A stretch of DNA of 64,000 bases from an uncultured virus (IMG/VR IMGVR_UViG_3300034374_006354) (lineage: Duplodnaviria > Heunggongvirae > Uroviricota > Caudoviricetes): IMG/VR virus record IMGVR_UViG_3300034374_006354, one strand, 5' to 3'. The position numbers and the translations under genes were made by a program. Shown piece after piece: positions 1-63,160 of the stretch. Every line of letters starts with the position of its first letter. The stretch's first letter is position 1. The notes under the pieces were generated by a model. It was not told the origin of the DNA, searched no databases, and worked only from the letters and a program-made list of their open reading frames with translations.

Positions 1-296
1 ACTGGACGATTTAACTGGTTTTCTCTGAAAGAGACATCTCTAAGATTAGAAATATAATTATTAGAGCGGTTACCGTCTTTATGATCTATTTGGTCAGGAT
101 CTATCCCGTTTATTAATTTCCATATTAATCGATGTGCTCTATATTTTTTATTATCTAAGTTTATAAGTATATAACCCGAATCAGAAAGTGTTCCAGCGGT
201 CTTTCCACTACGCCTCCAGATTAGATTACCGTTTTTATAAACAAATAGTTCATGTAATCTTAACCTAGAGGGTAATTTTAATGTCTTTTTAGTAAT
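1..296 (-). CDS. HNH endonuclease, runs off the window edge, start uncertain
   Basis: Manual translation: LPSRLRLHELFVYKNGNLIW...YRAHRLIWKLINGIDPDQIDHKDGNRSNNNISNLRDVS, a typical HNH motif. No in-frame ATG; ATT at 294-296 follows a GAGGGAG SD-like sequence. Confidence 0.75.
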   Translation of the reverse strand, partial: MTKKTLKLPSRLRLHELFVYKNGNLIWRRSGKTAGTLSDSGYILINLDNKKYRAHRLIWKLINGIDPDQIDHKDGNRSNNYISNLRDVSFRENQLNRP

Positions 297-796
297 ATCT
301 TGTCTCCCTCTTTGTCAACTTTAATCATTTGGAATCCTATAGATTTACCATAATCAATAGAACTAGCATCTCTATATATCTCTTTATAATACATCTTTTT
401 GATTCCTGATTGAAACAGAGCTACCGTACATGGAATACACGGTAGGAGAGTGCAATAAGCTGTTGCACCCTCTCCTGATTGAGTTGATTTTGCTAGTTTT
501 GATAGGGCATTAAGTTCAGCATGAATAACACAAGGAAGGGTTACACCGTTACGATCCCTCATTACATTAGATGCTCCATGCGGTGTTCCATTATAACCGA
601 TAGAGAGTATATTGTTATCTCTAGCAATTACACACCCTACTTTAGTTTTCTCATCTTTTGATCTAGAGGCTACTAGCTCACATACTCCCATAAGGAACTC
701 TACCTCTTCATCTTCCTTTCGGATAAGATCACCAATAGTGACATCACTACCGTTAAACATAAGCTCATAGTATGAATCGTCTGAATTAAAGCTCAT
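278..796 (-). CDS. dCMP deaminase
   Basis: KVGCVI, GYNG, HAELNAL and PCIPC zinc-deaminase motifs. Confidence 0.9.
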   Translation of the reverse strand: MSFNSDDSYYELMFNGSDVTIGDLIRKEDEEVEFLMGVCELVASRSKDEKTKVGCVIARDNNILSIGYNGTPHGASNVMRDRNGVTLPCVIHAELNALSKLAKSTQSGEGATAYCTLLPCIPCTVALFQSGIKKMYYKEIYRDASSIDYGKSIGFQMIKVDKEGDKILLKRH

Positions 797-8611: not shown

Positions 8612-8622
8612 ATTTTCCTCCT

Positions 8623-10620: not shown

Positions 10621-11029
10621 CTAGTGTGGGAATCTTAAGAGTGATCAGTTGAAGATCCTTGTAGATTCTACCAAAGCCGATAAGTGACCTTCCTTCAGGG
10701 TAATCAGGATAGCCGTAAGCTTTACCTTTGATTACAACAAAACTATCTCCTAGGATATAATAATCTCCGTAGGCTTCTGATTCCAACCTTAGAGAGTTGG
10801 TAAAGGTCATATAGACTCTACCATCATAAAACCATCCCTTAACCTTATTACCTCCTTGTTCCAGCATACGAGAGCTTTCGTCTTGAACCCAAGGTAACCA
10901 TGATTTATGTCTTACATGAGTATCTTTGATATAATTGATAGTTTGCTTAATTTTCTTAGGTTCATAAACCTCTACAGAAACATCAGCAATAGGTTTAAAC
11001 AATTCAAATAGTGTTTTAAAATTCATCAC
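10565..11029 (-). CDS. hypothetical protein
   Basis: ORF tightly packed in the operon. Confidence 0.6.
   Translation of the reverse strand: MMNFKTLFELFKPIADVSVEVYEPKKIKQTINYIKDTHVRHKSWLPWVQDESSRMLEQGGNKVKGWFYDGRVYMTFTNSLRLESEAYGDYYILGDSFVVIKGKAYGYPDYPEGRSLIGFGRIYKDLQLITLKIPTLDGRYVSVKSIYKPEEYYV
10634..10650 (-). promoter_or_regulatory. Possible variant of the phage promoter motif (AACTGATCACTCTTAAG)
   Basis: Two mismatches to the 17-mer consensus, same orientation as the genes, but inside a CDS. Confidence 0.4.
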
Positions 11030-13252: not shown

Positions 13253-16183
13253 TTAACAAAATGCAAAGTCTGATTCCAGTATCTCTGCTATATCTAAATT
13301 TCCACGTTCAGGAAATAAATCCATGGCATCTAACTGAGCCAATAGCTGCGCTAAAGGATCAGATTTATAGAAGTCCATAAATTGTTCCCTTGTTATTCTG
13401 AAGAGATCTTTCATATTACCGGGATGACAACCGAAGCTATCATGCACAGTGGTTACTATGAAGTCTGAACTATTAATAATTAATGTCAGATGTGCAGCAT
13501 CAAATGAATGAACTATATTGGGGGCTGCGCCAGTGGATTGTTTTCTCCTATCCAGCTTACCTGTCTCTTTAGGTTGAATAGTAAGTTGTATACCCTTTCC
13601 TCTATTGGATCTACAAAACCTTACTCTAACCCTTTGTTCCTTTGTTTTCAAATATTCTTGAACAGCAGGAAAGTAGGTTACTGGAACTCTCCAAGATAGG
13701 AAGGAGTTCTCCACATTTGCCCTCTCTGCCAATTTCTGAAATAGGGATAGCATGGTAGCAGGCCCTTTCAATTTCTTCAACATAGTATCCCTGAGTAGGT
13801 CTCCGAAGGGGTTTGACCAAGACTTATCTTTGAACTTTAACTCTTCCGTAAGTGTTTTAGTATCGTCAAATATCTGGTCTCTAACTCCTTGTCTGGTTAC
13901 ACCATAACCGAGGGTCATCACAGGTCTTTTTACTGCCTTTCTTTGAATCTTAAGATCATCTTTAAAAGTCATCCAGAAGGGTATAAATATCTTCTTTTCA
14001 AACTCTTTATTGTTAGTTCTCCACTCATCAAGCTCTTTGAAAGCAGCATCTTTATCCTCTTTAGTTTCTGCCTTCTCTCGTTTGAGTTTAATCTCTTTTA
14101 TTTCTTCCATGAGTCTTGGGAGTTCTTCTTTTACAGGGTGATCTAGTTTATCATAAAGATCACTAAGGGCTTCCCAAGTAGCCTCTGCGACATACATGTA
14201 TACATCCCCGGGCTCATCCGTGGGTACTAGGTTTACTAGTGGTGCGATATTTTCATCAAGTGAGAGTGCAGTTAGGTGTTGTACACCATTATTCGCATAG
14301 TGTTCAAAGAGGGGCGTTAATCCTCTTCCGATTGGTATTGTTTTAAATTTTTATATTTAAACTTATTTCCTAAAATAGAGCCCTTTTCTTTTATTTTATT
14401 AGAGTTGTGGTACTTGTCTCTGCCTTCTTTAAAAGAATCGGAATATAAGTTATTTGAATGAATTAAATTTTCTTTTGGTGTACACCACTCTAAGTTTTCA
14501 ACTCTATTATCACTTTTTATTTCGTTGATATGATTAATTTGGGGCTTATCAAGAGGATTAGGGATAAAAGCAGATGCCACTAATCTATGTACTTTACATG
14601 TTAGCTGTTTACTTTTAACCCAAAGAGTAACTATTTCATAACCATCCTTGTCTCTTCTGGTTTTTAAGTAAGAAACTCTTTTTCCTTTTATTTTACCTTC
14701 TTTATTAATATAATAACCACTATCTTCTATTTGTTTCCACATATAATTTCCTCTTGTGAAAACAATACCAATCAGCTGCATGTCACCATGCAGATCAGAC
14801 CATATCTTCTAGAGCGGTAGCCCTAGCCTCCCGTTTCGGACCACTTGGCCCTACGTCTTTCGACTGGTCGTTGCACGTTCCTAATAATTTTAGGCTTCGC
14901 TCAGGATTGTCTCTTTCGAGAGTTTCCCTGAATTAGAGAGGTTTTAGATGAGCCAGCATTAACCCATCGATGAATATTGGAAGATGACATACATAATCTT
15001 CAGTGTCGTTACCACCTATAACCTTCCACATGTCTAGCGCTCTCCATTCGAAAGCACAAGCAAGAGCAGACCACGGCTTCTCAGCCTCCATCCATCCGGT
15101 ATTAGTATCAGGAAATGCTGCCCACGAATAAATCTCATCTAGATTATCCAGAACATATTGTACCCTCTCGTCTAGAGATAGCTTATCTTGACCAATACTA
15201 TTAGCAGTATGAACAGCTAACCAATAAGCGCCTTCATCACCGAGAGGGACACCCTCGTTATACATAATGAGACCCTTAGCGTTATCTGAACTTTGCTCGT
15301 TAAGATAAGGAGTCATCGGATATATACGACCACGGAAGTCGCAATTATAAGCTTGATAGAAAGGTCGTTCACCTATTCTATCCGCTATAGTTTTAATAAA
15401 TTCTGCTTCTAGGAACATTCCTGCTCTACTAGCCACCATTTCTTCTTTGTCATGCTTGAAAGGAGAGAGTTGAGATGGTTTATAATCCCTCTTCAACAAC
15501 TCCTCTTTGGTCTGCATATTAAGAAGCTTCTTATAAACATGGAAGACATTCTGGTTAATCTTGTAAGGTGTCTTCTGTAGTTTATTAAGAGCGTTAAACA
15601 CATGTGGTGCAGAATATGGGGTAATCATTTTAAGAGTCTTAGTTGAAGCTCCTCGTATCAAAGGCGCTTTCAAATCGATATGATAGAAAGAATTCCAATC
15701 TTTAGCGGGAGTCAACAAAGGGAACTCAGGAGAGTTCTCAATATCTTCACTTAAAATAATCTTGTTTAAAAGCTCTTCATCAGTGCATATTAGTGCATAA
15801 AGAGCATTATCGTTAGCTCTGGAGGATCTACCTTTATTTACTAGTTTAATATCTAGCAGGTGGACCCCTCTATCCTTATAATCTTTATTACAAAAGGCTT
15901 CCAGAATCTTAACGCCACAATGAACAGCTGCTTTTGTTTCTTCTTTTTCTTCTTCCTCTTTAAAGTGCATTCTAATAACAGCACCTATTGAAGCAGCAAC
16001 AGAGGTCATAGAGGCTCCTTGGATAACACCAAGAACTACTTTGCTAATTACGAGTCTATAAATGTCCTCGATAGTTTCATCAAAGTTTTCCTCTAAATGT
16101 TTCCATAACCAATGTACATGACTTCGGCGGTCCTTTGTGGTGAGTAGCCTTTCTGACAAACTCGATATTATTTGATCACGCAT
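13253..16183 (-). CDS. T7-type single-subunit RNA polymerase, spliced; exons 16183-14962 and 14295-13253, about 754 aa
   Basis: DFRGRIY; spliced motif A LPIFIDG-S-NNGVQHL; motif B RKAVKRPVMTLGYG; APNIVHSFDAAHL; motif C VHDSFG; C-terminus SDFAFC. Exon total of 2265 nt is in frame. Confidence 0.95.
14296..14961 (-). mobile_element. Group I intron in the RNA polymerase gene
   Basis: P1 pairing GAUGGGU/GCUCAUC with the splice-site U.G pair; terminal G. Core AAUUCAGGGAAAC...AAUCCUGAGC, GCAACGACCA and GAUAUGGUCU. Splicing yields T+CG (Ser), restoring DGSNNG. Confidence 0.92.
14317..14781 (-). CDS. Intron-encoded NUMOD4/HNH homing endonuclease (I-HmuI-like; start probably MWKQ near 14742)
   Basis: WKQI..SGYYINKEGKI; VHRLVASAFIPNP...INHINEIKSDNRVENLEWCTPKENLIH. 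Confidence 0.88.
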   Translation of the reverse strand: MQLIGIVFTRGNYMWKQIEDSGYYINKEGKIKGKRVSYLKTRRDKDGYEIVTLWVKSKQLTCKVHRLVASAFIPNPLDKPQINHINEIKSDNRVENLEWCTPKENLIHSNNLYSDSFKEGRDKYHNSNKIKEKGSILGNKFKYKNLKQYQSEED

Positions 16184-16570: not shown

Positions 16571-16659
16571 ACCCCCTGCAACTAGACTGGATTCCTTTAT
16601 GCTATAGAGTGATCAATTTCACTCAGGAGCATAAAAGAATCCTGCCTAGCGCAGGGGGT
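16571..16659. other. Long imperfect inverted repeat (RNase III-site-like or terminator-like) enclosing a promoter motif
   Basis: Nested pairings accccctgc/gcagggggt, ctag/ctag, ggattcctttatgct/agcataaaagaatcc and gagtga/tcactc. Confidence 0.75.
16602..16618 (-). promoter_or_regulatory. Phage RNAP promoter motif AATTGATCACTCTATAG
   Basis: Repeated 17-mer resembling T7/T3/SP6 promoters (...CACTATAG); intergenic and co-oriented with genes. Confidence 0.75.
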
Positions 16660-22395: not shown

Positions 22396-22412
22396 CTTTA
22401 GTGTGATCAATT
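22396..22412 (-). promoter_or_regulatory. Phage RNAP promoter motif AATTGATCACACTAAAG
   Basis: Intergenic copy of the 17-mer. Confidence 0.75.
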
Positions 22413-31828: not shown

Positions 31829-31845
31829 CTATAGGGTGATCAATT
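31829..31845 (-). promoter_or_regulatory. Phage RNAP promoter motif AATTGATCACCCTATAG
   Basis: Identical to 59807-59823. Confidence 0.8.
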
Positions 31846-47083: not shown

Positions 47084-48271
47084 TTAAATGTGGAAGATAG
47101 GCAGAATGCCGAGGTTAAGCAGATCGACTTTACGGTCCCAAGTAGGCGTAGCTGCAGAGCCAGCCAGCGTAGCGTTAGTTGCAAACGCAGTGCTTGTGCC
47201 GGTGAAGCTATAGCCGCGAGGATGCATTACGTAACCCCAACGGTACCAAGCAGTCGTACGACCAGAACCCATACCAACGTGTTCGTTGCGATCAACAGCA
47301 ACAGGGTTGGGTACTGATACGTTATGCATGAATACAGAACCAGGGAGCATCATAAAGGAGCACTTCAGCGTAGTCATCTGAGTTACACCAGACAGACCAG
47401 CATAAGTTACCGTACCAAGAGAAACAGCAAAGTTTCGTGATACGATCAGTCGAACAACACCACCAAGGATAGTTTCGAAAGAAACGTTACCGTCGACAAC
47501 ACGCTCGTCGTCTACGAGGTTAGCAACCTTGACATCGAGGTAATCTTCAGGAGAGATAACCATGTATACGAAGTCAGGAGTATAATCAGACCATGCACCC
47601 ATTGCGCGAATAATGTGCTCAACGCGACGACCGGGAACAGTCTGAGTCAGGTCAACCAGACCTTCAATAGAAGAACCAGTACCAACCGTGTCAGAGCTAG
47701 ATGCTACATAACCGAAAGCCTTAGAGCCATCAGCGTCAACAGAGTTACCAGCCCATGCTTCTGTATAGTTGGTAGGGGCCAAATCATTAGCAGTCTTGAG
47801 TTCGGCGTTCATTACACCATTCAGGACTGAACGGAGAGCTTGGTCTTCGTCTTCTGAACGAGTCTCAGCGAAGTCACGAGCAATCTTGCCCAGACCGTCT
47901 TCACCCGAGATTACAGACTGAACCATGTACTCGTTAGCACCGTGGGTACGAACCGTCTTAATGTAGGTCTGTACTTCAGTGCTGATGTTCGTGGTCTTAC
48001 CGTAGTCTTCGTTCTGAGAAGCAACGTTAACAACAGCGTTTGAGCTACCTGTTACGTCTTCACTAGCACCACCAGTAGCGCCTACAGCGTAGGCACCAAG
48101 AGGCTTGTAGAAGCGAACCTGACCGATAAAGTCTTCGCCGTTAGGATTAATCTGAGCGTCAGAACCTACGAGAGCAGTACCAACGATCTTCTTAGCTCGA
48201 GTGTACATTTCATCAGTGTAACCCGAGATTGCTTTATTAAGTGTGCCAAATGCACTTGAGGAAATTGCCAT
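47084..48271 (-). CDS. Major capsid protein
   Basis: 395 aa after the scaffold gene; biased codon usage; YVMHPRGYSF C-terminal motif. Confidence 0.8.
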   Translation of the reverse strand: MAISSSAFGTLNKAISGYTDEMYTRAKKIVGTALVGSDAQINPNGEDFIGQVRFYKPLGAYAVGATGGASEDVTGSSNAVVNVASQNEDYGKTTNISTEVQTYIKTVRTHGANEYMVQSVISGEDGLGKIARDFAETRSEDEDQALRSVLNGVMNAELKTANDLAPTNYTEAWAGNSVDADGSKAFGYVASSSDTVGTGSSIEGLVDLTQTVPGRRVEHIIRAMGAWSDYTPDFVYMVISPEDYLDVKVANLVDDERVVDGNVSFETILGGVVRLIVSRNFAVSLGTVTYAGLSGVTQMTTLKCSFMMLPGSVFMHNVSVPNPVAVDRNEHVGMGSGRTTAWYRWGYVMHPRGYSFTGTSTAFATNATLAGSAATPTWDRKVDLLNLGILPIFHI

Positions 48272-48302: not shown

Positions 48303-48998
48303 TTACTGCCACTTCCCTGTTCCATCGAATCGACCTGCTGCGGCTGCAGCCATAATTTCTTCGGTAGACATTTCTTCTAGTGGCTTATTATGATCAAACC
48401 CTTGACCGGACTGTGTAATATTCTCTTGTCCAGAGCCAGAGGATTGTTTTGGTTTAAATAAGAACTCTTTGTCTTCGTCTTTGCGGAAAGATTCGATGAA
48501 ATCTTTAACGGAAGCGCCAGTACGGTGAACCCACTGACCTTTCTCGTCTTGAACAAGTTGAGATACGACATCTTTGTAAGCAAAGTCTGCTGCAGTGTCG
48601 TTTCTGAAATCCAAGCCTTTGAGAGCATTCCTCACGACATTATCGCGAGTAAGTTCAGTAATCTGCTTGTCTTTCTCTGCGAGTCGTGCAGTCAGTTCTG
48701 CCAACTTAAGATCGGCGGCTTCTTTATGTTTACCCTCTTCTTCGAGTTGTTGAATCTCTCGTTGCTTTCTTTCTTCCTCGTATGCAACAGCCTTTCGGAC
48801 TGCTTCATCACGGGCTTCATAAGCAGCATCAAGTTTTTCCTTGATACCTGAGAGTTCTTCATTAACCCTAGCTTCAACAATCTTCGCTAGCTCTTCACTA
48901 GACGGAGTATCATTTTGGCTTTGGGAATTCTCATCATCCCCTTGAGAGTTTTGGTTTTCATCTAATTCTTTTTGTGACATTTTAAGCTCCTTGGGCAC
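48303..48998 (-). CDS. Capsid scaffolding protein (start probably MSQK near 48980)
   Basis: Acidic coiled-coil protein directly upstream of the capsid gene. Confidence 0.75.
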   Translation of the reverse strand: MPKELKMSQKELDENQNSQGDDENSQSQNDTPSSEELAKIVEARVNEELSGIKEKLDAAYEARDEAVRKAVAYEEERKQREIQQLEEEGKHKEAADLKLAELTARLAEKDKQITELTRDNVVRNALKGLDFRNDTAADFAYKDVVSQLVQDEKGQWVHRTGASVKDFIESFRKDEDKEFLFKPKQSSGSGQENITQSGQGFDHNKPLEEMSTEEIMAAAAAGRFDGTGKWQ

Positions 48999-49046: not shown

Positions 49047-52000
49047 TTATGGGCCAATTCCATACCAGTCTTCTCCTTCTAGGATCAATTCCAATATGTC
49101 TTCGGCTGTAATACCATCCTTGGGGTTTAAGAGACCCAACTCTTCTGCTTCCTTAAGAAGTCTTTCATAGGACTCTTTAGAAAGCCCTTGTTTCCTCATT
49201 TCCTTGAGGGTACGAAGGAGTGTTTGACCCTCTACCGCATCCGCATATATTCTACGTAATGCCCATTTAGCATCTGTAGAATCAACGATGTTAGTAAAGA
49301 ATCCGTCATGAATAGTCGCTGTGTTCACGTTATTCGCTCTACCCCATAAGTGGAATTTGCGAACAATGGATGCGTCATTCATGTGGTTTCCATTTACTCC
49401 TAGACCGCTACGAGCATCAATAATCGATGACCTTCCTAAATATTTAGAGTCGGTTATCGCTACCTCGTAGACATTACTCACCCTCCTTCCAGTTACAGGA
49501 TCGATAAAAGAGATCCTTTCTTGAACTGTAGGACGGTATCGCTGATACAAGAGTTTACCGTCTACTGTAACCCAAGGTATGTCTACCTTTCCTGATTCAG
49601 TAATGTAAACCTCCGCAACTTTTTTCCAATATGAAATAAAGTTCTCCGTTACCGGAGCAACGTCTTTAAGGTGTTTTGACATAATACGGGCTACCTCTTT
49701 AAATTGTTGAGGGCCTACAATGCCACCTTTAACGTTGGTCAGCTTGGCTACAAAAAGCTCCGAATCAGGGTGAACGTCTCTAGCGTGTGCCAAGAGCTTT
49801 TTCCCGATTGGAACATTGTTAGTTATAGAGTAGTTTACTTCTGTTTTAAGTTCTCTTAGAGACGCCGCCACAGACGACGCATTAGATTTCTCCGCTGCTT
49901 TAATCGCATTATCAATGCCTTTATTAAAGTCTCTTAATTCATCAGCAGTTACTACTACAAAATTTTTCTTAGCAAGAACTTTAGCTAATTTAGCTTCAAT
50001 AGCCCCTGCTTGTGTTGCTTGTCCAGCACCATAAAAAGCTACCATCGATTGACCTTTAGCTGCCTTAGATAAATCACCAAAGTCTAAGTCGTTTCCTAAT
50101 GGATTTATTTTATGGAAGTCTGGATCAGATAAGGTTCTTTCTGCTACAATATCATAAAGACGATTCTTTCTTTTTGTTTTTAGAATATTAGAAGCCTGAG
50201 CTAACTGCCTATCCCTTGTGCTTAGGGCAATTAACTGAGCTCCTGAAGCAGAAGCGTCATTTTCGTTTGCTAATTGTGTGAAATAACCTTTTAATTTTCT
50301 ATTGTCAGTAAAATCACCATCTACATGCTTATAGATACGTGTATATTCAAGAGCAAGTCGAGCTAGTTTTGGAACTTCTTCAGGTTCAGTTGCCCTAATA
50401 AGAGGATGCTCTAGGAACTCCCGGATCCTACGATCCCTTTGAGTTTCTGCTAACATCAACTCCCCTATCTCTCTGAGTGCCTTCTCATTTTCTCTAAAGG
50501 CTCTTAGTCTTCCCTCATTAGTCAGAGTATTGAAAGGATCTCCTACGAGTGTTCCTAATTGCAATCGAAGTTCATTAACAGTCTCAGGACGAATTTGTTT
50601 AGATACTTTGGTATTTAAGAAGGGTCGTATGAACTCCCCTCCTGCAGGGTGAAGATACCCTTGGGTATATAATCGTCCTCTACCGTCTATCTGCGCCCAA
50701 TTCCTCCAAGATTGTTTATTAACGCGATGCCACCTTAAGGACTGCATCATGCCTGCGCCTGCTTCTCCTCTTTGAAGAACAATCTTTCGAAAACCGTTTA
50801 GCTCATCATAGTAGGCAACTCTTCCTCTGGGGTCTCTGAAATACATAAGAGATTCAAAGAAAGAGGCAAAATCATCATCAACTTCCCATTCAAAATCCAT
50901 GGCGTGATTAAGCATTCTAGAGAAATCCCTATCGATCAGGTTTTGATCATAATTACCAGAGGCTCTTCGTGTTATTACACTAAGCCCTGTTTTACGACCT
51001 CTAGAATCAAAGAACGTCTTTGATCCTGCCTTCACAGTAAGCATATCCCTTTCTCTTATGATACCAATTCGTCTAGAGTATACTAACTCCTGATATGCCC
51101 TCTGCAGTTTGAGCATTTCAGGGTCAATAATCTGGACTTCCCGGGAGATGGTATCCGCATAAGAGCCTATTCCCGGCCTTCCGGATTCGACATCGATGAT
51201 GCCTCTACGAGTAACACCTCTCATGCCAATTCTGATTTTGCCTTGGTCCTTAAGACCATCAAGAATATCTGATCCTACTTTATGATAATTTTTAACTGTT
51301 GGTGGTTTAAAGAATATATCGAAGTCGTTAGCCTCCGCTTCATAAATCTTCTTACCAATCCTAATAGCTAACAAATCATAGTCTGTAGACTCGCCTGTTG
51401 CTATGTCTGCCATTATCTCAGATAATAGCTTAGTACGTTTCTTTAAGAAATCAGGAGTAAGCTCTCTTTGTATAAAGTCTTCTCTTTTCCTGGCATATAT
51501 CCATTCAAGATCTAGAATCCTTCTTTTTCTCTCATTACCAGCTTGTAAAAAGCGAGTTATAAGATCATCTGAAGGTTCCCCATTATATCTCTTTAGAAAA
51601 GCCTTCCCAAAAGGTAAACTCTCAATTTCTTTCTTAATTTTCTTTCTAATAGATTTCTTAGTAGGAATGTAAGCAGGTACTCTTGGGAAATAAAGCCTAA
51701 GCGGTGATCTACCTTTAATATATAAATCTCTAGCTAAAGGTAATCCATTTTTAACTGCCCACTCATCTACGTATCTCTGATTTGATAATGTCCTGTCCGA
51801 CAAGTCATCAAAAGAAGTCCATTCTCCTAATATCTGAACTTGAGCATCTTCTTCTTTATTGCCAAAACGAAATATATTTCCTCGTAATCTAGATCTTCTA
51901 TCTAGAATTCTAGAAGTGTTCACTACTGAGTTCTTGAGTTCTGCTTTAAGAACGCTAGAAAGATTTACCCACGGAGTCTTATCTTTTGCGTACCTTTCGA

Positions 52001-53498
52001 ATACAATTCTAAGGTTTTCAGCAACAGCAGTTCTCTGATTGACAGATAATCCTTCATCTTCCAATGAATCTACAAAACCTGTAATCCAAGCTTTCTGTTC
52101 TGTCGTTAGTAGTTTAGATCTATTTACAAAGTCTATTCTCTCTTGGTATACTTCAAAATCAGGACTATAAATCAGTGTTGATTTTTGTTCTCCGGTTAAT
52201 GGATCAACTCCCACATTCCTTTCATCGAATTGATTATTTGCTCTCCGTCGAGTAGCACGTTTACCCGCAAGAGATGTACCTCTATAATCCACAACAGCCA
52301 AGGCGGAGGAATTATTGTGTGCCTCTGCCCTGTAAAAGACTTTAAGTTGGTTCTCAACGTCTTTATTACGAATCAAAGTCTGTGGTCTTGAAGCATCCAC
52401 TCTCAAATTATTAATAGCGGTTGCACTTAAAGCTTTCTGCTTTACTGGTGTGAAGTTTGTATTTTTATTATCCAGCCTTCGAAGTGCTTGTAATGAAATA
52501 GGTTTCCCACTTGCTGTAGTAAAACTTGTAAGCGGGAGTTGTCCAGAATCAAAAAGATCTACTTTCTGTATATCTCCTTGAAAATGGCGAACCTTAGTTT
52601 CTCTAGGTTGCCTTGTGAGCCATTGTCCATAGGTTTCCCTACTTGGCCCAATACCATCGAACTTTTTAATATTAGTTTGTTTAATAGCTTTAAGAGCTTT
52701 CTTTTTTACGTCAGGGGAAGTACTAGCTAAGAGCTCATCATAAGACTTAACAACAGGTACTAGTGTGCTACGACACCTCCAGTGTAAAGGAGGAACAAAG
52801 CGGAGGTCATCTAGGTCGTAGATTTCCCCATCGTGATGAGCACAAATGGCTGATGTACGATTATCCAATACTGCGGTAAAGCGCATGCCCTTAAGAATTG
52901 CTCTATTCTCTTGGAATGAAGCTAATTGAGCTGTAGTTTGCGTCTTAGTTACGGCAGTTCTCACTAATGCGGATGCTTGGGCTTCGGTCAATCTTGTTGT
53001 TTTTATAACCGAGCGGACTAGCTGTTTGTTGTCCCACCCTTCCCGCAAGCCTTTTGTAATAGTGGCTTGAATGCGCTTAAGTTCGTTAGCGCCGAGACCT
53101 TGGATACGCCTGCTTAGTGTTCCTTCCCCTCTGACGTTAGCACCTACGATTTCCTCAAGTACTTTAGTAGCAGCAGGTCTGCGGATTACCGCCCATTGAC
53201 CTAAGCTTTTATTGAGGTTATTAGTGCTAAAATCGGTTTCTACCAACCCAAAATCTTGCATTTGGGAGGTTACATTTACATCTAATTCTTTAGAGAATCG
53301 ACTAACCTCCTGTTTGATTTCAGGCATGTGTTGTACCGCAGTACCTTTCGTTAAGTCTTTCCCCTCTAATAATTTAGTCAAACGGGTTCTATGTTTACGT
53401 ATAGTACGTTTCGTATCCGTTTGAACACGATCCTCGTACATACGTGTCATAGCAGTATGATCAACTTGACGATCGTAAATATCATCATTGATTGACAT
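49047..53498 (-). CDS. MuF (SPP1 gp7-like) minor head protein fused to a T7-type RNA polymerase domain; putative virion RNA polymerase
   Basis: N-terminal FTAVLDNRTSAICAHHDG...PPLHWRCRSTLVP (MuF). C-terminal IDGRGRLY, NDASASGAQL (motif A), KAAKGQSMVAFYG (B), NGNHMNDAS and IHDGF (C). Confidence 0.9.
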   Translation of the reverse strand: MSINDDIYDRQVDHTAMTRMYEDRVQTDTKRTIRKHRTRLTKLLEGKDLTKGTAVQHMPEIKQEVSRFSKELDVNVTSQMQDFGLVETDFSTNNLNKSLGQWAVIRRPAATKVLEEIVGANVRGEGTLSRRIQGLGANELKRIQATITKGLREGWDNKQLVRSVIKTTRLTEAQASALVRTAVTKTQTTAQLASFQENRAILKGMRFTAVLDNRTSAICAHHDGEIYDLDDLRFVPPLHWRCRSTLVPVVKSYDELLASTSPDVKKKALKAIKQTNIKKFDGIGPSRETYGQWLTRQPRETKVRHFQGDIQKVDLFDSGQLPLTSFTTASGKPISLQALRRLDNKNTNFTPVKQKALSATAINNLRVDASRPQTLIRNKDVENQLKVFYRAEAHNNSSALAVVDYRGTSLAGKRATRRRANNQFDERNVGVDPLTGEQKSTLIYSPDFEVYQERIDFVNRSKLLTTEQKAWITGFVDSLEDEGLSVNQRTAVAENLRIVFERYAKDKTPWVNLSSVLKAELKNSVVNTSRILDRRSRLRGNIFRFGNKEEDAQVQILGEWTSFDDLSDRTLSNQRYVDEWAVKNGLPLARDLYIKGRSPLRLYFPRVPAYIPTKKSIRKKIKKEIESLPFGKAFLKRYNGEPSDDLITRFLQAGNERKRRILDLEWIYARKREDFIQRELTPDFLKKRTKLLSEIMADIATGESTDYDLLAIRIGKKIYEAEANDFDIFFKPPTVKNYHKVGSDILDGLKDQGKIRIGMRGVTRRGIIDVESGRPGIGSYADTISREVQIIDPEMLKLQRAYQELVYSRRIGIIRERDMLTVKAGSKTFFDSRGRKTGLSVITRRASGNYDQNLIDRDFSRMLNHAMDFEWEVDDDFASFFESLMYFRDPRGRVAYYDELNGFRKIVLQRGEAGAGMMQSLRWHRVNKQSWRNWAQIDGRGRLYTQGYLHPAGGEFIRPFLNTKVSKQIRPETVNELRLQLGTLVGDPFNTLTNEGRLRAFRENEKALREIGELMLAETQRDRRIREFLEHPLIRATEPEEVPKLARLALEYTRIYKHVDGDFTDNRKLKGYFTQLANENDASASGAQLIALSTRDRQLAQASNILKTKRKNRLYDIVAERTLSDPDFHKINPLGNDLDFGDLSKAAKGQSMVAFYGAGQATQAGAIEAKLAKVLAKKNFVVVTADELRDFNKGIDNAIKAAEKSNASSVAASLRELKTEVNYSITNNVPIGKKLLAHARDVHPDSELFVAKLTNVKGGIVGPQQFKEVARIMSKHLKDVAPVTENFISYWKKVAEVYITESGKVDIPWVTVDGKLLYQRYRPTVQERISFIDPVTGRRVSNVYEVAITDSKYLGRSSIIDARSGLGVNGNHMNDASIVRKFHLWGRANNVNTATIHDGFFTNIVDSTDAKWALRRIYADAVEGQTLLRTLKEMRKQGLSKESYERLLKEAEELGLLNPKDGITAEDILELILEGEDWYGIGP

Positions 53499-53703: not shown

Positions 53704-53974
53704 GATTAAATTTCCCTTCCATTAACAGGACAGCATCATCTTCTAGCATAGGCGTTTTTCCTAGAAACTTATTATTCTCTGGGGTAGGCTCTACAATCCA
53801 TCGAATTTCAGTATCACCATGACTACCCGCAGGCACTTCTCGTTTCTCTACAATTTTCCACAAACCGTTTTTAGACAGCATGCCTACTTCCAGTTTAGGA
53901 ACGGATTTAAGCTCAGGCTTTTCTTCTTCCTTCTTAGGACGGCCCGGGCCTTTCTTTTCTTCACTCATTATCAT
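53693..53974 (-). CDS. hypothetical protein
   Basis: KGPGRPKK AT-hook-like motif; overlaps the portal stop. Confidence 0.6.
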   Translation of the reverse strand: MIMSEEKKGPGRPKKEEEKPELKSVPKLEVGMLSKNGLWKIVEKREVPAGSHGDTEIRWIVEPTPENNKFLGKTPMLEDDAVLLMEGKFNHGG

Positions 53975-55589
53975 CTTCCTCAGAAATTGGTTCTGGTGTA
54001 TTAGTTTGTTGGTTGACTATAGAGTCCATAGTCATAGTGTCTAATCCACCCATAATTAAATCATCTTGGTTAATCTCATCTTGACCTTCTAGATCATCAT
54101 AGTCAGAGTCGATAATATCGTTAGCTTTAGCCACTTCCAAGAATACGGATCGTGGAATAATGCCGGTTTGATACCACTCTGTAACCAGACGCAACCAATC
54201 AGCACCTAAAGGCGCAGGGTTAAGATCAGGAGTCAAGTTAAAGGTAATCTCTTCGATATCGTAATCGGTGTCATATTTCCAGTTTAGCATCCACATAAGA
54301 ATTCGTCTCATTTGAGTAGATACTTTAAAACTGATGGAAGCAAGCAATGCAGACTGACCCGCATTACGGATCTCCAAAGCTACACCAGAATCTCTACCGC
54401 TGCCATTCTCAGCAGCCATCATTCTAATACCCAATCTTGCCATTTCATTGACAGAGTTTTGAATGATTTGTTCCATATCTCGAAGAGCTTTTGATGGTGT
54501 TTCGAGAGCCTTAACATCCTCTCCTGCACCAACCTTTAGCCAAGAGCCAAGGCCTCCATCCACAACCTCCTCAAACTGATCATCAGTCATGTCAGAGATT
54601 ACAACAGGAGTATAAGTTGCTGAACCAAGCAATAAGTGGTTCCTTCGTGATACTTTGTTGTATAGCGCTACTTCCCTATCGATGAGCGGCATAAGAACCG
54701 GTTCATCTCCATCGATATTTCCGTTAAGAGGAACAGCAGGAATAAAATTTAATCTTTTTCCATTGGCTAGGATATTGTCATTTATGCCAATAAGCTCCCA
54801 ACCTGAACCTCCTCCACGATGGAAGTCATTTTGTTCTTGACCATTGATAAACTGTACATCTACTGGCTTCTTTTTAATCTGGTATTTCTTAATTCTATAA
54901 AAACCCATTTCATCTAGTTCATGGACATGAACAGTCTCAATATAATCCGGATGATAAGGATTCTCAGCAAAGCTTTCTTCATAGCTTCTGATTATCATAA
55001 ATTTAAGAACATGTTTTCCAGTTATGGGGTGTTTACCCATCTTCCAGTTAATAACAGATTCGGCCTGAATAAGGATAGGATAAGGTCTAATCTTATCTCT
55101 GTCTTCTTTTTCTAGTGCCTCGATATTAGGAACCACAGGATGGTCCACCATTACCCAAGCTCTAGAGGTATGAAGCTCCTCTGTAAGAGCATCATTAAGG
55201 AATGATAATAGAGAATTACCATTCGCAGTAAATTCGTTTTTAATCCAATCTAATGCACCTTCAGGTACACCGTCTGGTAAAATTACTTCAGGTTGTTTTC
55301 GAAGCATACCACCAATCAATACTTTAACATATTGAGAGGTAAGTCCAGGCAGTTCTGCTTCTGCTTTATAAAACTTATATTGAGATTCCGTCATAGACGG
55401 AGAGAAGGGCAATAAGATATTACTAAACCCTATTGCATCCAAGGTGTTATCCAGAGCCTTAGCGTGTGCTTGACCATTCAGGATGCCCCTAGATAACCTC
55501 CAAAGAGGCTTCAAGGACTCATACCTTGAATTAGGATCTCCAACCGTTTTACTACGGTTATTGGAGGTACCTGTACTATTTGTAGACAT
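53961..55589 (-). CDS. Portal protein
   Basis: 542 aa directly after the terminase; DSGVALEIR; acidic C-terminus. Confidence 0.85.
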   Translation of the reverse strand: MSTNSTGTSNNRSKTVGDPNSRYESLKPLWRLSRGILNGQAHAKALDNTLDAIGFSNILLPFSPSMTESQYKFYKAEAELPGLTSQYVKVLIGGMLRKQPEVILPDGVPEGALDWIKNEFTANGNSLLSFLNDALTEELHTSRAWVMVDHPVVPNIEALEKEDRDKIRPYPILIQAESVINWKMGKHPITGKHVLKFMIIRSYEESFAENPYHPDYIETVHVHELDEMGFYRIKKYQIKKKPVDVQFINGQEQNDFHRGGGSGWELIGINDNILANGKRLNFIPAVPLNGNIDGDEPVLMPLIDREVALYNKVSRRNHLLLGSATYTPVVISDMTDDQFEEVVDGGLGSWLKVGAGEDVKALETPSKALRDMEQIIQNSVNEMARLGIRMMAAENGSGRDSGVALEIRNAGQSALLASISFKVSTQMRRILMWMLNWKYDTDYDIEEITFNLTPDLNPAPLGADWLRLVTEWYQTGIIPRSVFLEVAKANDIIDSDYDDLEGQDEINQDDLIMGGLDTMTMDSIVNQQTNTPEPISEEDDNE

Positions 55590-59673: not shown

Positions 59674-59806
59674 TAGTGTTCCCCTTAGGGATAAGTTGTT
59701 TAGGTTTAGTTAATAACATCAACTAGCCTCTTCCTATAGGATTCCTTAGTAAGCTTCCGCTAAGGGGTTCCTATAGGGTCATTAATGATATACCGGGGTC
59801 TATTTT

Positions 59807-59823
59807 CTATAGGGTGATCAATT
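59807..59823 (-). promoter_or_regulatory. Phage RNAP promoter motif AATTGATCACCCTATAG heading the lysis/packaging/head operon
   Basis: Identical to 31829-31845. Confidence 0.8.
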
Positions 59824-59844
59824 CATTCCCGGCAGTTTTTAGTT

Positions 59845-59861
59845 CTTTAATGTGATCAATT
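59845..59861 (-). promoter_or_regulatory. Phage RNAP promoter motif AATTGATCACATTAAAG
   Basis: Identical to 60226-60242. Confidence 0.7.
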
Positions 59862-60225: not shown

Positions 60226-60242
60226 CTTTAATGTGATCAATT
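60226..60242 (-). promoter_or_regulatory. Phage RNAP promoter motif AATTGATCACATTAAAG
   Basis: Intergenic copy of the 17-mer. Confidence 0.7.
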
Positions 60243-60410
60243 TGATCCTTCCAAAAAATTTTTTACTAATTCCCTATAGACCTTCGCTCAGTCGCTATCG
60301 CCTACGCTCTATGCTCCTTCGCTTAAAACCCTCATTTATTTGATAGCGCTACGCTTTTGCTCAAGGTATTGAGCTCTCTATAGGACAAAACTTAAATAAA
60401 GGAAGCTTAA

Positions 60411-62240: not shown

Positions 62241-62257
62241 AATTGATCACTCTAAAG
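62241..62257 (+). promoter_or_regulatory. Phage RNAP promoter motif AATTGATCACTCTAAAG
   Basis: Plus-strand copy upstream of a plus-strand gene. Confidence 0.75.
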
Positions 62258-63011: not shown

Positions 63012-63028
63012 AATTGATCACTCTATAG
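63012..63028 (+). promoter_or_regulatory. Phage RNAP promoter motif AATTGATCACTCTATAG
   Basis: Same sequence as the minus-strand copy at 16602-16618. Confidence 0.78.
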
Positions 63029-63049
63029 GACTAGTCCCCGGGGGAACCT

Positions 63050-63160
63050 ATTAATATATCATTAATATATCATTAATGATCATTAATATTCATTAATATA
63101 TCATATATGATCCTTCATTATTCCTTCATATATCCCTTCATTATTCCTTCATTATTCCTT
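63050..63160 (+). repeat. AT-rich short tandem repeats
   Basis: Several (atat)cattaat units followed by ccttcattatt units. Confidence 0.8.

What the first reader, a model, noticed from the sequence alone, without database searches (positions are those of the whole stretch)
49047..53498. MuF minor head protein fused to a T7-type RNA polymerase: candidate virion-delivered RNAP in a siphovirus-type phage
Seen: one uninterrupted 1483-aa ORF in the canonical MuF slot (terL, portal, two small ORFs, this gene, scaffold, capsid). About aa 1-345 is a MuF/SPP1 gp7 domain (AVLDNRTSAIC..HDG, PPLHWRCRS, TYGQWL). The C-terminal part has, in order, DGRGRLY, NDASASGAQL, RLYDIVA, KAAKGQSMVAFYG, NGNHMNDAS and IHDGF. 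Known: these correspond to T7 RNAP DxRGRxY, motif A (D537), motif B (K631/Y639), the NFVHSQD segment and motif C (D812). SPP1 gp7 binds portal and DNA, is packaged at low copy and aids ejection; MuF proteins are known to carry C-terminal toxin domains. N4 packages a single-subunit vRNAP, but that is a ~3500-aa non-MuF protein in a podovirus. Inference: MuF acts as a packaging/ejection tag that delivers an RNA polymerase for early transcription. The R627 equivalent appears to be Ser, so motif B is divergent. I do not know of a characterised example, but cannot exclude that database homologues exist.
Basis: partly seen in the sequence, partly recalled or inferred. Interest (0 to 1): 0.96.

Follow-up and report, generated by a model that had tools for sequence, protein, structure and literature searches.

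The report
Head protein fused to RNA polymerase
A phage head-assembly protein that normally rides inside the capsid is fused here to a complete T7-type RNA polymerase, so this widespread group of long-tailed phages probably injects its own transcription enzyme together with its DNA.

Summary
Window 49047-53498, on the minus strand, is one uninterrupted 1483-aa ORF (168.8 kDa). It sits in the order TerL, portal, two small ORFs, this gene, scaffold, major capsid protein.

Residues 1-363 are a MuF/SPP1-gp7 head-morphogenesis module (Pfam PF04233, 57.8 bits). Residues about 562-1481 model as a full-length T7-like single-subunit RNA polymerase (PF00940, 29.8 bits; VIA-align Z 28.8 to T7 RNAP against 16.0 to N4 mini-vRNAP). 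The catalytic residues of DxRGRxY and motifs A, B and C are invariant in 45 of 45 aligned homologues.

The fusion is not an assembly artefact. Of 46 related IMG/VR loci whose 5' end can be read, 45 carry a 1453-1603-aa frame. The cultured relatives are the dU-DNA roseophages DSS3_VP1 and DSS3_PM1, where the gene is annotated only as a head protein.

The window also holds a second, unfused T7-like RNAP, interrupted by a group I intron. A T7-type promoter motif precedes the transcription units, including that RNAP gene.

Best reading (0.65): MuF packages the polymerase, which is ejected to start transcription without the host enzyme. Packaging and activity are inferred, not shown. Ten literature searches found no description. 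I class it as a new variant of virion RNA polymerases.

The parts
49047..53498 (-). MuF-RNAP fusion gene: 1483 aa, 168.8 kDa, pI 9.6 (stop codon included)
52410..53498 (-). MuF / SPP1 gp7-type head-morphogenesis module, aa 1-363. The Pfam core, aa 142-246, is 52761-53075.
   Evidence: Pfam PF04233 57.8 bits. phrog_241 E 4.4e-52. The AF2 model of aa 1-600 (pLDDT 86.5) matches 102 predicted viral minor-capsid / head-morphogenesis structures at E<=0.001.
51816..52409 (-). Extension of the MuF module plus the junction, aa 364-561. It contains a strongly conserved stretch at aa 403-448 of unknown role. tblastn similarity to the unfused head-morphogenesis proteins of Pelagibacter phages Kolga and Aegir runs to aa 489.
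49056..51815 (-). Complete T7-like single-subunit RNA polymerase module, aa 562-1481
   Evidence: AF2 pLDDT 83.8, pTM 0.78. Foldseek T7 RNAP 1cez_A E 8.5e-19. VIA-align 8dh5_M Z 28.8, rmsd 4.0, 519 aligned, model 85..1000 against T7 35..882. hhalign to T7 RNAP 95% probability, E 3.8e-8.
50667..50687 (-). DGRGRLY, aa 938-944, aligned to the T7 D421-Y427 segment
   Evidence: HMMER alignments. D938, R940, G941, R942 and Y944 are invariant in 45 of 45 sequences.
50256..50258 (-). Motif A catalytic Asp D1081, aligned to T7 D537
   Evidence: invariant in 45 of 45
50028..50066 (-). Motif B, KAAKGQSMVAFYG, aa 1145-1157. K1148, Y1156 and G1157 are invariant and K1145 is at least 90% conserved. S1144 sits at the R627-equivalent position.
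   Evidence: Conservation. The assignment to T7 K631/Y639/G640 is by pattern and fold, not by a sequence alignment (searches did not align it).
49305..49310 (-). Motif C, H1397-D1398, aligned to T7 H811-D812
   Evidence: invariant in 45 of 45
53961..55589 (-). Portal protein, immediately upstream. It is the presumed docking partner of the MuF module.
   Evidence: phrog_145 E 1.7e-56. A portal homologue lies upstream of the fusion gene in 34 of the 80 related loci.
48303..48998 (-). Head scaffolding protein, immediately downstream
   Evidence: phrog_206 E 5.6e-13
47084..48271 (-). Major head protein
   Evidence: phrog_247 E 6.6e-22
13253..16183 (-). Second, unfused T7-like RNAP gene. Exon 1 is about 15062-16183. 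The group I intron core is 14776-15061, with an HNH ORF at 14317-14781. Exon 2 is 13253-14197.
   Evidence: phrog_414 E 1.6e-57 and 2e-61; HNH phrog_59 E 5.2e-34. Rfam RF00028 86.5 bits. No significant BLASTP similarity to the fused RNAP.
16602..16618 (-). T7-type promoter-like site AATTGATCACTCTATAG, about 420 nt upstream of the second RNAP gene
59807..59861 (-). Two tandem T7-type promoter-like sites (59807-59823 and 59845-59861) at the head of the long minus-strand block
60226..60242 (-). T7-type promoter-like site. It is divergent from a weaker plus-strand site at 60364-60388.
62241..62257 (+). T7-type promoter-like site upstream of a plus-strand gene
63012..63028 (+). T7-type promoter-like site, followed by AT-rich palindromes and iterons
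31829..31845 (-). T7-type promoter-like site upstream of a virion structural gene
22396..22412 (-). T7-type promoter-like site
10634..10650 (-). Weaker T7-type promoter-like site (2 mismatches), just upstream of the nucleotide kinase gene

Best explanation
The gene encodes a two-part virion protein.

The N-terminal ~500 residues are a MuF/SPP1-gp7-type minor head protein. It is the only one found in this phage and it sits in the canonical slot after the portal gene. By analogy with gp7, this part is built into the procapsid at the portal in a few copies.

The C-terminal ~950 residues are a complete and, by all sequence criteria, catalytically competent T7-like single-subunit RNA polymerase.

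The proposed mechanism runs as follows:
1. The protein is made late and packaged through its MuF part.
2. It leaves the capsid with the DNA at infection.
3. It transcribes the first genes of the incoming genome from phage-specific promoters, without the host polymerase and without new protein synthesis.
4. Among its products would be the second, unfused phage RNAP, which then takes over or shares later transcription.

This parallels N4's vRNAP-then-RNAPII logic, but uses a different carrier and a T7-like enzyme. Transcription by the ejected enzyme may also help pull the genome in, as is known for T7 and N4.

Shown here: the architecture, the fold, the invariant catalytic residues, family-wide conservation of the fusion, synteny, the second RNAP and the promoter family.
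Inferred: packaging, ejection, activity, and which of the two polymerases reads which promoter.
For: 1. Architecture. Phage_Mu_F scores 57.8 bits and RNA_pol 29.8 bits, both above the curated cut-offs. phrog_241 and phrog_414 also match.

2. Fold. The aa 481-1483 model has pLDDT 83.8. T7 RNAP is the best match (Foldseek E 8.5e-19; VIA Z 28.8 covering T7 35-882). The N-terminal model matches 102 predicted minor-capsid / head-morphogenesis proteins at E<=0.001.

3. Catalytic competence. D938/R940/R942/Y944, D1081, K1148/Y1156/G1157, H1372/D1375, H1397/D1398 and the C-terminal YGxGP are invariant in 45 of 45 sequences at about 50% identity.

4. The fusion is selected.
- 229 clusters match at E<=0.001. 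Of the 120 listed, 114 are 1427-1596 aa long and 97 carry both precomputed Pfam domains.
- 617 IMG/VR stretches encode relatives.
- Of 46 loci with a closed 5' end, 45 have 1453-1603-aa frames.
- Of 23 distant long relatives, 22 carry MuF at E<=0.001.

5. Position. A portal gene lies directly upstream in 34 of the 80 related loci. DSS3_VP1 has the same slot. No other MuF hit was found among the 56 other window ORFs scanned.

6. Two-polymerase logic. The window has a separate T7-like RNAP gene, and so does DSS3_VP1 (gp080). The two enzymes are not detectably similar by BLASTP.

7. Promoters.
- AATTGATCACNCTANAG occurs 9 times against 0.17 expected; 0 of 100 shuffles reached 9. All sites are co-oriented with their genes, including one upstream of the second RNAP gene and those at the divergent early-looking region.
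- The core motif recurs between portal and the fusion gene in 4 relatives.
- DSS3_VP1 has its own T7/SP6-like motif in at least 13 copies, all in the gene orientation.
- Sigma-70-like sites are not enriched: 20 against 19.2 expected, and 10 against 18.9.

8. Precedent. MuF domains are fused to many enzymatic cargo domains predicted to be delivered into the host (Iyer 2017, passages). A MuF-ADP-ribosyltransferase of Xanthomonas phage Xp12 is among the structural matches.
Against: - There is no direct evidence that the protein is in virions, is ejected or is active.
- The Rihtman 2021 text has no occurrence of 'structural protein', and its only 'proteom' hits concern a proteomic tree. Its supplements were not seen.
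- Only one clear promoter family was found, for two polymerases. The promoter class read by the fused enzyme is therefore unidentified, and the promoters could all belong to the unfused RNAP.
- Sigma-70-like promoter scans are uninformative, so host-RNAP early transcription is not excluded.
- The T7 R627 equivalent is Ser or Ala in the family.
- Pfam RPOL_N is not detected, and the RNA_pol score is only modestly above its cut-off.
- In four relatives a promoter lies directly upstream of the fusion gene. That fits a late gene but says nothing about delivery.
- A 169-kDa cargo passing through a siphovirus tail has no experimental precedent that I know of (recalled).
Confidence: 0.65

Rival explanations
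1. The protein is a late intracellular polymerase and is not delivered. It would act only in the cell that makes it, for example to transcribe late genes or to work at the procapsid. The polymerase half would then be removed by proteolysis or left behind, so that only the MuF part is a virion component.
For: The gene lies in the late structural block. Four relatives have a phage promoter directly upstream of it. Nothing here shows packaging of the polymerase half. There are low-confidence segments in the models at aa 351-357 and aa 608-612 and 654-665 (model 128-132 and 174-185) where a cleavage could be imagined.
Against: A separate unfused RNAP already exists for intracellular transcription. 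The covalent fusion is kept in 45 of 46 readable loci and across relatives down to 23-25% identity. That is hard to explain if the link had no role. The window's PHROG scan found no head maturation protease gene next to it.
Confidence: 0.15
2. The protein is delivered, but its main job is not making mRNA. The ejected polymerase would chiefly act as a motor that pulls the genome into the cell, or as the primer-maker at a transcription-activated replication origin. This overlaps with the best explanation rather than excluding it.
For: The promoter-like site at 63012 is followed at once by AT-rich palindromes and iterons (63040-63180). This layout resembles the T7 primary origin (recalled). Transcription-driven genome entry is established for T7 and N4 (recalled).
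Against: There is no specific evidence for it. The same promoter family precedes ordinary genes.
Confidence: 0.1
3. The polymerase module is a catalytically dead structural or DNA-binding remnant.
For: The Pfam RNA_pol score is only 29.8 bits. The R627 equivalent is not conserved. PDB sequence matches are weak (E 0.0011).
Against: Both catalytic Asp residues, the motif B Lys/Tyr/Gly, the His of the NxxHxxD segment and the C-terminal tail are invariant in 45 of 45 sequences at about 50% identity. The fold matches full-length T7 RNAP at Z 28.8.
Confidence: 0.03
4. The protein is a MuF polymorphic toxin-type effector, delivered to harm competitor cells.
For: It has the same general layout: an N-terminal MuF domain plus a variable C-terminal enzyme (Jamet 2017; Iyer 2017).
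Against: The cargo is a polymerase, not a toxin domain. The downstream gene is the scaffold, not an immunity gene. The relatives are lytic phages. None of 185,579 species genomes carries a relative. The cargo is constant across the family rather than polymorphic.
Confidence: 0.02

Closest known systems
Coliphage N4 virion RNA polymerase gp50 (mini-vRNAP, PDB 2po4; full-length 9pnq/9pnt)
   Same: Both are single-subunit Pol-A-type RNA polymerases encoded among late genes and, for N4, carried in the capsid and injected to transcribe early genes. In both cases the phage also encodes a second T7-like RNAP for later transcription. The folds are related (Z 16.0 to 2po4, 14.2 to 9pnq).
   Different: This protein is 1483 aa against about 3500 aa. 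N4 uses its own N-terminal injection domain and C-terminal encapsidation domain (Iyer 2017 passage), whereas here the carrier is an N-terminal MuF head protein. The polymerase is much closer to T7 RNAP (Z 28.8) and aligns from T7 residue about 35, so it includes the T7-type N-terminal domain. The relatives are siphovirus-morphotype phages, not podoviruses. The promoters seen are T7-like duplex motifs, not N4-type hairpins; which enzyme reads them is unknown.
T7 RNA polymerase (PF00940; PDB 1cez, 1s77, 8dh5)
   Same: The fold matches over nearly the whole chain. DxRGRxY, motif A Asp, motif B Lys/Tyr/Gly, the NxxHxxD segment, motif C His-Asp and a conserved C-terminal tail are all present.
   Different: It is fused behind a ~500-aa head protein. 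Structure-based identity is only about 14-18%. The R627 equivalent is Ser or Ala, with a Lys one residue later. Pfam RPOL_N is not detected. The gene sits in the late structural block rather than being an early gene read by the host polymerase.
SPP1 gp7 / phage Mu F minor head proteins (PF04233)
   Same: The N-terminal domain is the same and the gene sits in the same place after the portal gene. gp7 is a portal-bound, low-copy virion protein that helps infection (recalled; cited in Iyer 2017).
   Different: It carries about 1000 extra residues that form an enzyme. No solved MuF structure was found for comparison.
MuF-cargo fusions: MuF polymorphic toxins (Jamet 2017) and MuF-effector or polyvalent proteins (Iyer 2017)
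   Same: The design principle is the same: a MuF head domain followed by an enzymatic C-terminal cargo that is predicted to be delivered with the DNA.
   Different: The cargo is an RNA polymerase serving the phage's own expression. It is constant rather than polymorphic, in lytic phages, with no immunity gene. Neither paper reports such a cargo. Jamet 2017 has 0 occurrences of 'polymerase'. [quoted passage not shown]
Virion RNAPs of dU-DNA jumbo phages (AR9/PBS2, phiR1-37) and of crAss-like phages
   Same: The concept of a packaged polymerase that frees early transcription from the host is the same. AR9, PBS2 and phiR1-37 share the dU-for-dT genome chemistry with the cultured relatives DSS3_VP1 and DSS3_PM1 (recalled).
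   Different: Those enzymes are multisubunit or two-barrel polymerases, unrelated in fold to this Pol-A-type enzyme (recalled).

Membership tests
Phage_Mu_F / SPP1 gp7 minor head protein family (PF04233) | Match to the family HMM above the curated cut-off | tested here: met
   57.8 bits against 29.6, aa 142-246; phrog_241 E 4.4e-52 over aa 1-363
Phage_Mu_F / SPP1 gp7 minor head protein family (PF04233) | Gene located in the head module just after the portal gene | tested here: met
   Portal 53961-55589, then two small ORFs, then this gene, scaffold and major head protein. Portal lies upstream in 34 of the 80 related loci.
Phage_Mu_F / SPP1 gp7 minor head protein family (PF04233) | Fold shared with other minor capsid / head morphogenesis proteins | tested here: met
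   The aa 1-600 model has 102 BFVD matches at E<=0.001, named head morphogenesis or minor capsid protein. No solved structure matched.
Phage_Mu_F / SPP1 gp7 minor head protein family (PF04233) | Physical presence in procapsid and virion through the portal | not testable with these tools
   Needs virion proteomics or cryo-EM
T7-like single-subunit RNA polymerase (PF00940) | Match to the family HMM above the curated cut-off | tested here: met
   29.8 bits against 22, aa 1069-1445; phrog_414 E 2.5e-24; hhalign to T7 RNAP 95%, E 3.8e-8
T7-like single-subunit RNA polymerase (PF00940) | Right-hand Pol-A fold with thumb, palm and fingers aligned to T7 RNAP | tested here: met
   Z 28.8, rmsd 4.0, 519 residues, T7 35..882; Foldseek E 8.5e-19
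T7-like single-subunit RNA polymerase (PF00940) | Catalytic Asp residues of motifs A and C | tested here: met
   D1081 and D1398 aligned to T7 D537 and D812; invariant in 45 of 45
T7-like single-subunit RNA polymerase (PF00940) | Motif B Arg-x3-Lys-x7-Tyr-Gly (T7 R627, K631, Y639, G640; numbering recalled) | tested here: inconclusive
   K1148, Y1156 and G1157 are invariant. The Arg position is Ser or Ala, with K1145 at least 90% conserved next to it. Sequence aligners did not align this motif.
T7-like single-subunit RNA polymerase (PF00940) | N-terminal promoter-binding domain (Pfam RPOL_N) | tested here: inconclusive
   No Pfam RPOL_N hit, but the structural alignment starts at T7 residue about 30-35
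T7-like single-subunit RNA polymerase (PF00940) | Promoter-dependent RNA synthesis | not testable with these tools
   Needs in vitro transcription
N4-like virion RNA polymerase (gp50 family) | A giant polypeptide of about 3500 aa, with the polymerase between its own injection and encapsidation domains, usually fused to an MPTase domain (Iyer 2017) | tested here: not met
   1483 aa. The only other domain is MuF. The fold is closer to T7 RNAP than to mini-vRNAP (Z 28.8 against 16.0).
N4-like virion RNA polymerase (gp50 family) | Packaged in the capsid and injected to transcribe early genes | not testable with these tools
   Inferred from the MuF fusion only
MuF polymorphic toxins (Jamet 2017) | Variable C-terminal toxin domain with a downstream immunity gene, in temperate phages or prophages | tested here: not met
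   The cargo is a conserved polymerase. The downstream gene is the scaffold. There are 0 relatives in the 185,579 species genomes.

The most novel reading that the evidence does not exclude
A whole, environmentally abundant family of long-tailed marine phages (Naomviridae-like, with dU-substituted DNA in the cultured members) would be independent of the host RNA polymerase from the first moment of infection.

- A T7-like polymerase tethered to the MuF head protein is ejected through a siphovirus tail with the DNA.
- It reads T7-type promoters on dU-DNA that the host sigma-70 enzyme reads poorly.
- It switches on a second phage polymerase.

On this reading MuF is a general delivery handle able to carry a folded enzyme of more than 100 kDa. 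It would also mean that every known dU-DNA phage lineage has independently acquired a virion polymerase.
Probability: 0.35. Interest if true: 0.9.

Novelty: new variant of a known kind. Interest (0 to 1): 0.82.

Why it matters
Virion-packaged RNA polymerases are known from N4-like podoviruses, phiKZ/AR9-like jumbo phages and crAss-like phages (recalled). Each uses a dedicated giant or multisubunit enzyme.

Here an ordinary T7-type polymerase appears to have been made deliverable simply by fusing it behind the common MuF head protein, in phages with a long non-contractile tail. If true, four things follow:

1. It adds a fourth, mechanistically simple route to host-independent early transcription.
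2. It gives the first cargo of known, easily assayed activity for testing whether MuF fusions really are ejected. That claim is so far only a prediction for the MuF toxins.
3. It re-annotates the largest head gene of the Naomviridae. The two cultured phages list it only as a head protein. Relatives are reported at about 3 x 10^8 per litre in one seawater sample (PMC12669031).
4. It offers an explanation of how dU-DNA phages get their first genes read.

It is directly testable, because DSS3_VP1 and DSS3_PM1 and their host are in culture. A compact, self-delivering T7-like polymerase with its own promoter would also be a useful tool.

Tried and rejected
**Portal-MuF complex.** I ran a complex prediction of the portal (23-row alignment) with MuF aa 1-420 (54-row alignment). 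The result was no verdict (score 0.00, mark 0.32). This counts neither for nor against binding.

**Solved MuF structure.** Foldseek of the aa 1-600 model against the PDB gave no match at E<=0.001.

**Own genome and earlier findings.** The window's assembly is not held. The nearest record, G001, is a 29-kb fragment with the same fusion.

**Other clades of MuF-RNAP.**
- P0230 and P0176 have no relatives in viral contigs.
- In the 50,697 phage records they match nothing full-length beyond DSS3_VP1 and DSS3_PM1.
- Among those records, only DSS3_VP1 (2 records), DSS3_PM1 and EBPR siphovirus 1 cover at least 80% of the query.

**Prophage copies.** No relative was found in genome contigs.

**Recent duplication of the phage's other RNAP.** Rejected. 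BLASTP of the fused protein against both exon products gave E 0.21 and 2.4.

**Host promoters.** Sigma-70-like sites are at or below the shuffled expectation in 59.6-64 kb and 16-22.5 kb. This is uninformative.

**A second promoter class for the fused enzyme.**
- An 11-mer count over the window found none, and a scan with a weight matrix built from the nine known sites added only one weaker site of the same family.
- The 'TATAG' and 'TAAAG' flavours of the one motif could mark two specificities, but that is speculation.

**Group I intron in the split EBPR siphovirus 1 homologue.** No Rfam hit.

**Motif B by sequence alignment.** Neither HMMER nor hhalign aligned it.

**Literature.**
- Ten searches found no paper describing a MuF-RNAP fusion.
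- The term 'virion-associated RNA polymerase' in PMC11619397 refers to an N4-like phage.
- The two polymerases in the Endozoicomonas phage preprint are unrelated to this question.

Full report
**1. The observation**

Window 49047..53498 holds a single 1483-aa ORF on the minus strand. It has an ATG start and no internal stop. The product is 168.8 kDa with pI 9.6.

PHROGs annotation of the neighbours and a small-ORF listing confirm the gene order. On the minus strand it runs: TerL (55601-56941), portal (53961-55589), two small ORFs (93 and 59 aa), this gene, scaffold (48303-48998), major head protein (47084-48271), then neck, tail and tape-measure genes.

**2. What the two halves are**

Pfam finds Phage_Mu_F at aa 142-246 (57.8 bits, cut-off 29.6) and RNA_pol at aa 1069-1445 (29.8 bits, cut-off 22). 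PHROGs finds head morphogenesis phrog_241 over aa 1-363 (E 4.4e-52) and RNA polymerase phrog_414 (E 2.5e-24).

The C-terminal part:
- An AlphaFold2 model of aa 481-1483, built with a 45-sequence alignment (A1), has pLDDT 83.8 and pTM 0.78.
- Foldseek ranks T7 RNAP first (1cez_A, E 8.5e-19), followed by mitochondrial RNAPs.
- VIA-align gives Z 28.8 to a T7 elongation complex (8dh5_M, rmsd 4.0, 519 residues). The alignment runs from model residue about 85 to 1000 and from T7 residue 35 to 882.
- The same tool gives about Z 25 to mitochondrial RNAPs and Z 16.0 and 14.2 to N4 mini-vRNAP and gp50.
- The module (protein aa about 562-1481) is therefore a whole T7-type enzyme including the N-terminal domain, not just a palm.
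- Profile searches agree: HMMER profile against T7 RNAP gives E 5.4e-6, and hhalign gives 95% probability, E 3.8e-8.

The N-terminal part:
- The aa 1-600 model (pLDDT 86.5) has no solved counterpart.
- It matches 102 predicted viral minor-capsid / head-morphogenesis proteins at E<=0.001. One of them is a MuF-ADP-ribosyltransferase fusion of Xanthomonas phage Xp12.
- tblastn similarity to unfused head-morphogenesis proteins of Pelagibacter phages Kolga and Aegir runs to aa 489. The junction therefore lies at roughly aa 490-560.

**3. Is the polymerase likely active?**

In A1 (45 sequences, about 47-79% identical to the window protein) the following residues are invariant:
- D938, R940, G941, R942 and Y944 (DxRGRxY)
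- D1081 (motif A)
- K1148, Y1156 and G1157 (motif B)
- H1372 and D1375 (the NxxHxxD segment)
- H1397 and D1398 (motif C)
- the C-terminal YGxGP tail

HMMER and hhalign align D938, D1081, H1372/D1375 and H1397/D1398 to T7 D421, D537, H784/D787 and H811/D812 (the roles of the T7 residues are recalled).

Motif B was not aligned by the sequence tools. Its assignment rests on the K-x7-YG pattern, on invariance and on the fold. The R627-equivalent position is Ser in the window protein and Ala in the family consensus, with a nearly invariant Lys (K1145) next to it. The invariant Tyr at the Y639 position fits an RNA polymerase rather than a DNA polymerase (recalled role).

**4. The fusion is real and old**

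- A search with aa 850-1483 found 229 protein clusters at E<=0.001. Of the 120 listed, 114 are 1427-1596 aa long. By precomputed Pfam, 97 carry both domains, 17 carry only PF04233 and 6 carry only PF00940; those six are 817-1257 aa long. All 120 align over 100% of the polymerase query.
- An exhaustive phmmer search of 1.84 billion representatives with aa 620-1483 found only 118 proteins at E<=0.001. In the long ones the polymerase part begins near residue 620.
- I scanned 27 of these against Pfam. Of the 23 long ones, 22 have Phage_Mu_F at E<=0.001 (21 above the cut-off) and 16 have RNA_pol at E<=0.001. One (P0224), together with the short P0233, is an unrelated repeat protein and a spurious match. 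One (P0165) keeps MuF but carries a nucleotidyltransferase and an acetyltransferase domain where the polymerase core would be.
- In IMG/VR, 617 stretches encode relatives. Of the 80 loci kept, 34 run off the contig end. Of the 46 with a closed 5' end, 45 have frames of 1453-1603 aa and one (L078) has 850 aa.
- A portal homologue lies upstream in 34 of the 80 loci.
- Among 50,697 phage records, only DSS3_VP1 (2 records), DSS3_PM1 and EBPR siphovirus 1 cover at least 80% of the protein. In EBPR siphovirus 1 the gene is split into gp47 and gp49 by an HNH gene.
- No bacterial or archaeal species genome carries a relative.

**5. What kind of phage this is**

Gene content and order match Bacteriophage DSS3_VP1 (Naomviridae, Noahvirus arc), where the homologue gp108 (44.5% identity) is annotated 'head morphogenesis'. 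DSS3_VP1 and DSS3_PM1 are lytic, have a siphovirus morphotype and contain dU in place of dT (Rihtman 2021, passages). A dCMP-deaminase-family dCTP deaminase and an HD dTMP phosphatase support this chemistry (Li 2025, abstract and section 2.2).

The window encodes a dCMP deaminase (278-796) and a nucleotide kinase (10180-10620). Whether its own DNA contains dU cannot be told from sequence.

**6. Context that bears on function**

(a) The window has a second RNAP gene at 13253-16183. Its two exon products match phrog_414 positions 161-511 and 542-816 (E 1.6e-57 and 2e-61). They are separated by a group I intron (Rfam RF00028, 86.5 bits, 14776-15061) that carries an HNH ORF. DSS3_VP1 has the uninterrupted counterpart, gp080, annotated 'RNA polymerase'. 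The two polymerases of the window are not detectably similar by BLASTP, so the fused one is not a recent copy.

(b) A T7-type promoter-like motif, AATTGATCACNCTANAG, occurs 9 times at up to 2 mismatches against 0.17 expected; 0 of 100 shuffles reached 9.
- It is always co-oriented with the downstream genes.
- The sites are at the divergent region at 59.8-60.4 kb, before the plus-strand genes at 62.2 and 63.0 kb, before structural genes at 31.8 and 22.4 kb, about 420 nt upstream of the second RNAP gene (16602), and, in weaker form, before the kinase gene (10634).
- A weight-matrix scan adds one weaker plus-strand site at 60364.
- The core motif recurs between portal and the fusion gene in four relatives at about 70% identity.
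- DSS3_VP1 has a different but also T7/SP6-like motif (ATAGGNNNCGTTAAAG...) in at least 13 copies, all in the gene orientation.

(c) Sigma-70-like sites are not enriched, which is uninformative.

(d) No other MuF homologue appears among the 56 other ORFs scanned.

**7. Most likely mechanism**

The MuF half does what gp7-type proteins do: it enters the procapsid at the portal in low copy. This is recalled for SPP1 gp7, and the family is described as head components fused to deliverable effectors in Iyer 2017. The covalently attached polymerase is thereby packaged, leaves with the DNA, and starts transcription of the incoming genome from phage promoters. The unfused RNAP is then made and continues the programme.

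This mirrors N4 (vRNAP, then RNAPII; recalled), but with a T7-like enzyme and a borrowed carrier. One possible reason is that cultured members have dU-DNA. The other dU-DNA phages I know of (PBS2/AR9, phiR1-37) also carry virion polymerases (recalled).

I put 0.65 on delivery plus early transcription, and about 0.95 on the narrower statement that this is a MuF head protein fused to an intact T7-like RNAP. I could not tell which polymerase reads the promoter family found. The two flavours (TATAG and TAAAG) may or may not reflect two specificities.

**8. Rivals**

- A late, non-delivered polymerase, or proteolytic removal of the polymerase half before packaging (0.15).
- Delivery mainly for genome pulling or origin priming (0.10, overlapping with the best explanation).
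- A dead remnant (0.03).
- A toxin-type effector (0.02).

The reasons for and against each are given in the rival entries.

**9. Comparison with what is known, and novelty**

It works like N4 gp50 but fails that family's defining architecture. It is a member of both PF04233 and PF00940. It follows the MuF-plus-cargo principle of Jamet 2017 and Iyer 2017, but neither reports a polymerase cargo:
- Jamet 2017 has 0 occurrences of 'polymerase'.
- Iyer 2017 states that N4-like virion RNAPs occur only in N4-like phages.

Three papers on these phages have 0 occurrences of 'RNA polymerase' in their main text: Rihtman 2021, Li 2025 and the 2025 single-particle genomics paper PMC12669031. I did not see their supplements, and the gene tables S2 and S3 of Rihtman 2021 could mention the unfused RNAP.

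Ten full-text searches found no description of the fusion. The library lacks most subscription journals, so absence from print is not proven. I class it as a new variant of a known kind, the virion RNA polymerases, with interest 0.82.

Noticed in passing
window 13253-16183 (-): The phage's second, unfused T7-like RNAP gene is interrupted by a group I intron (Rfam RF00028, 86.5 bits, 14776-15061) carrying an HNH homing endonuclease ORF (14317-14781).
   Followed up: partly
window 6583-7177 (-): Sub-threshold group I intron matches (32.6 and 24.1 bits, gathering score 50) flank an endonuclease VII-like ORF (6626-7126), just downstream of the DNA polymerase fragment 7190-8611. A 41-nt stretch (7140-7180) is 95% identical to part of the RNAP intron (14894-14934). 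This is probably a second, related intron splitting the DNA polymerase gene.
   Followed up: partly
window 63030-63180 and 61648-62083 (+): Directly after the promoter-like site at 63012 come AT-rich palindromes (ATTAATGATCATTAAT) and tandem TCCTTCATTAT iterons. Four copies of a 31-nt repeat lie at 61648-62083. The promoter-plus-AT-rich layout resembles a transcription-activated replication origin of the T7 type (recalled).
   Followed up: no
window 31729-31800 and 59724-59790: A 55-nt repeat (76% identical), with internal CCTATAGG and GCTTCCGCTAAGGGG elements and a CATTAATGA(T/C)C box, sits just downstream, in the direction of transcription, of two of the promoter-like sites. These may be regulator binding sites.
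   Followed up: no
window 22420-29592 (-): A 2390-aa ORF has many internal ~90-140-nt repeats and locally raised G+C (0.51 against about 0.39). It has no PHROG hit. DSS3_VP1 has a 2575-aa 'virion structural protein' with 30-nt periodic repeats. It is probably a repeat-rich fibre or decoration protein.
   Followed up: no
L084 (EBPR siphovirus 1, JF412302) 6049-11422: The MuF-RNAP homologue there is split into gp47 (1052 aa, 'head protein') and gp49 (431 aa) by an HNH endonuclease gene, gp48. Rfam finds no intron at the gathering threshold.
   Followed up: partly
protein P0165: A 1301-aa relative keeps the MuF domain and part of the region that follows it. It carries nucleotidyltransferase (PF01909) and GNAT acetyltransferase (PF13302) hits where the polymerase core would be. 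This suggests cargo exchange on the same carrier.
   Followed up: no
window 52155-52292 (-), protein aa 403-448: This stretch is highly conserved across 54 homologues (consensus DFRGTSLxGKxxSRRRxxNxFDERNxSxDPLTGExKSTLxYDPDF). It lies between the MuF core and the polymerase, and no function is assigned.
   Followed up: no
window 4463-5011, 6626-7126, 14317-14781, 56938-57429, 58163-58609, 59860-60195, 62273-62965: There is an unusually high load of HNH, endonuclease VII and homing-endonuclease-like ORFs: at least seven in 64 kb, several next to or inside core genes (TerL, RNAP, DNA polymerase).
   Followed up: no
window 278-796 and 10180-10620 (-): dCMP-deaminase-family and nucleotide-kinase genes occupy the same relative places as in dU-DNA phage DSS3_VP1. 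No HD-type dTMP phosphatase was seen among the PHROG hits of the ORFs scanned (Pfam was not run on them; the window may not hold the whole genome).
   Followed up: partly
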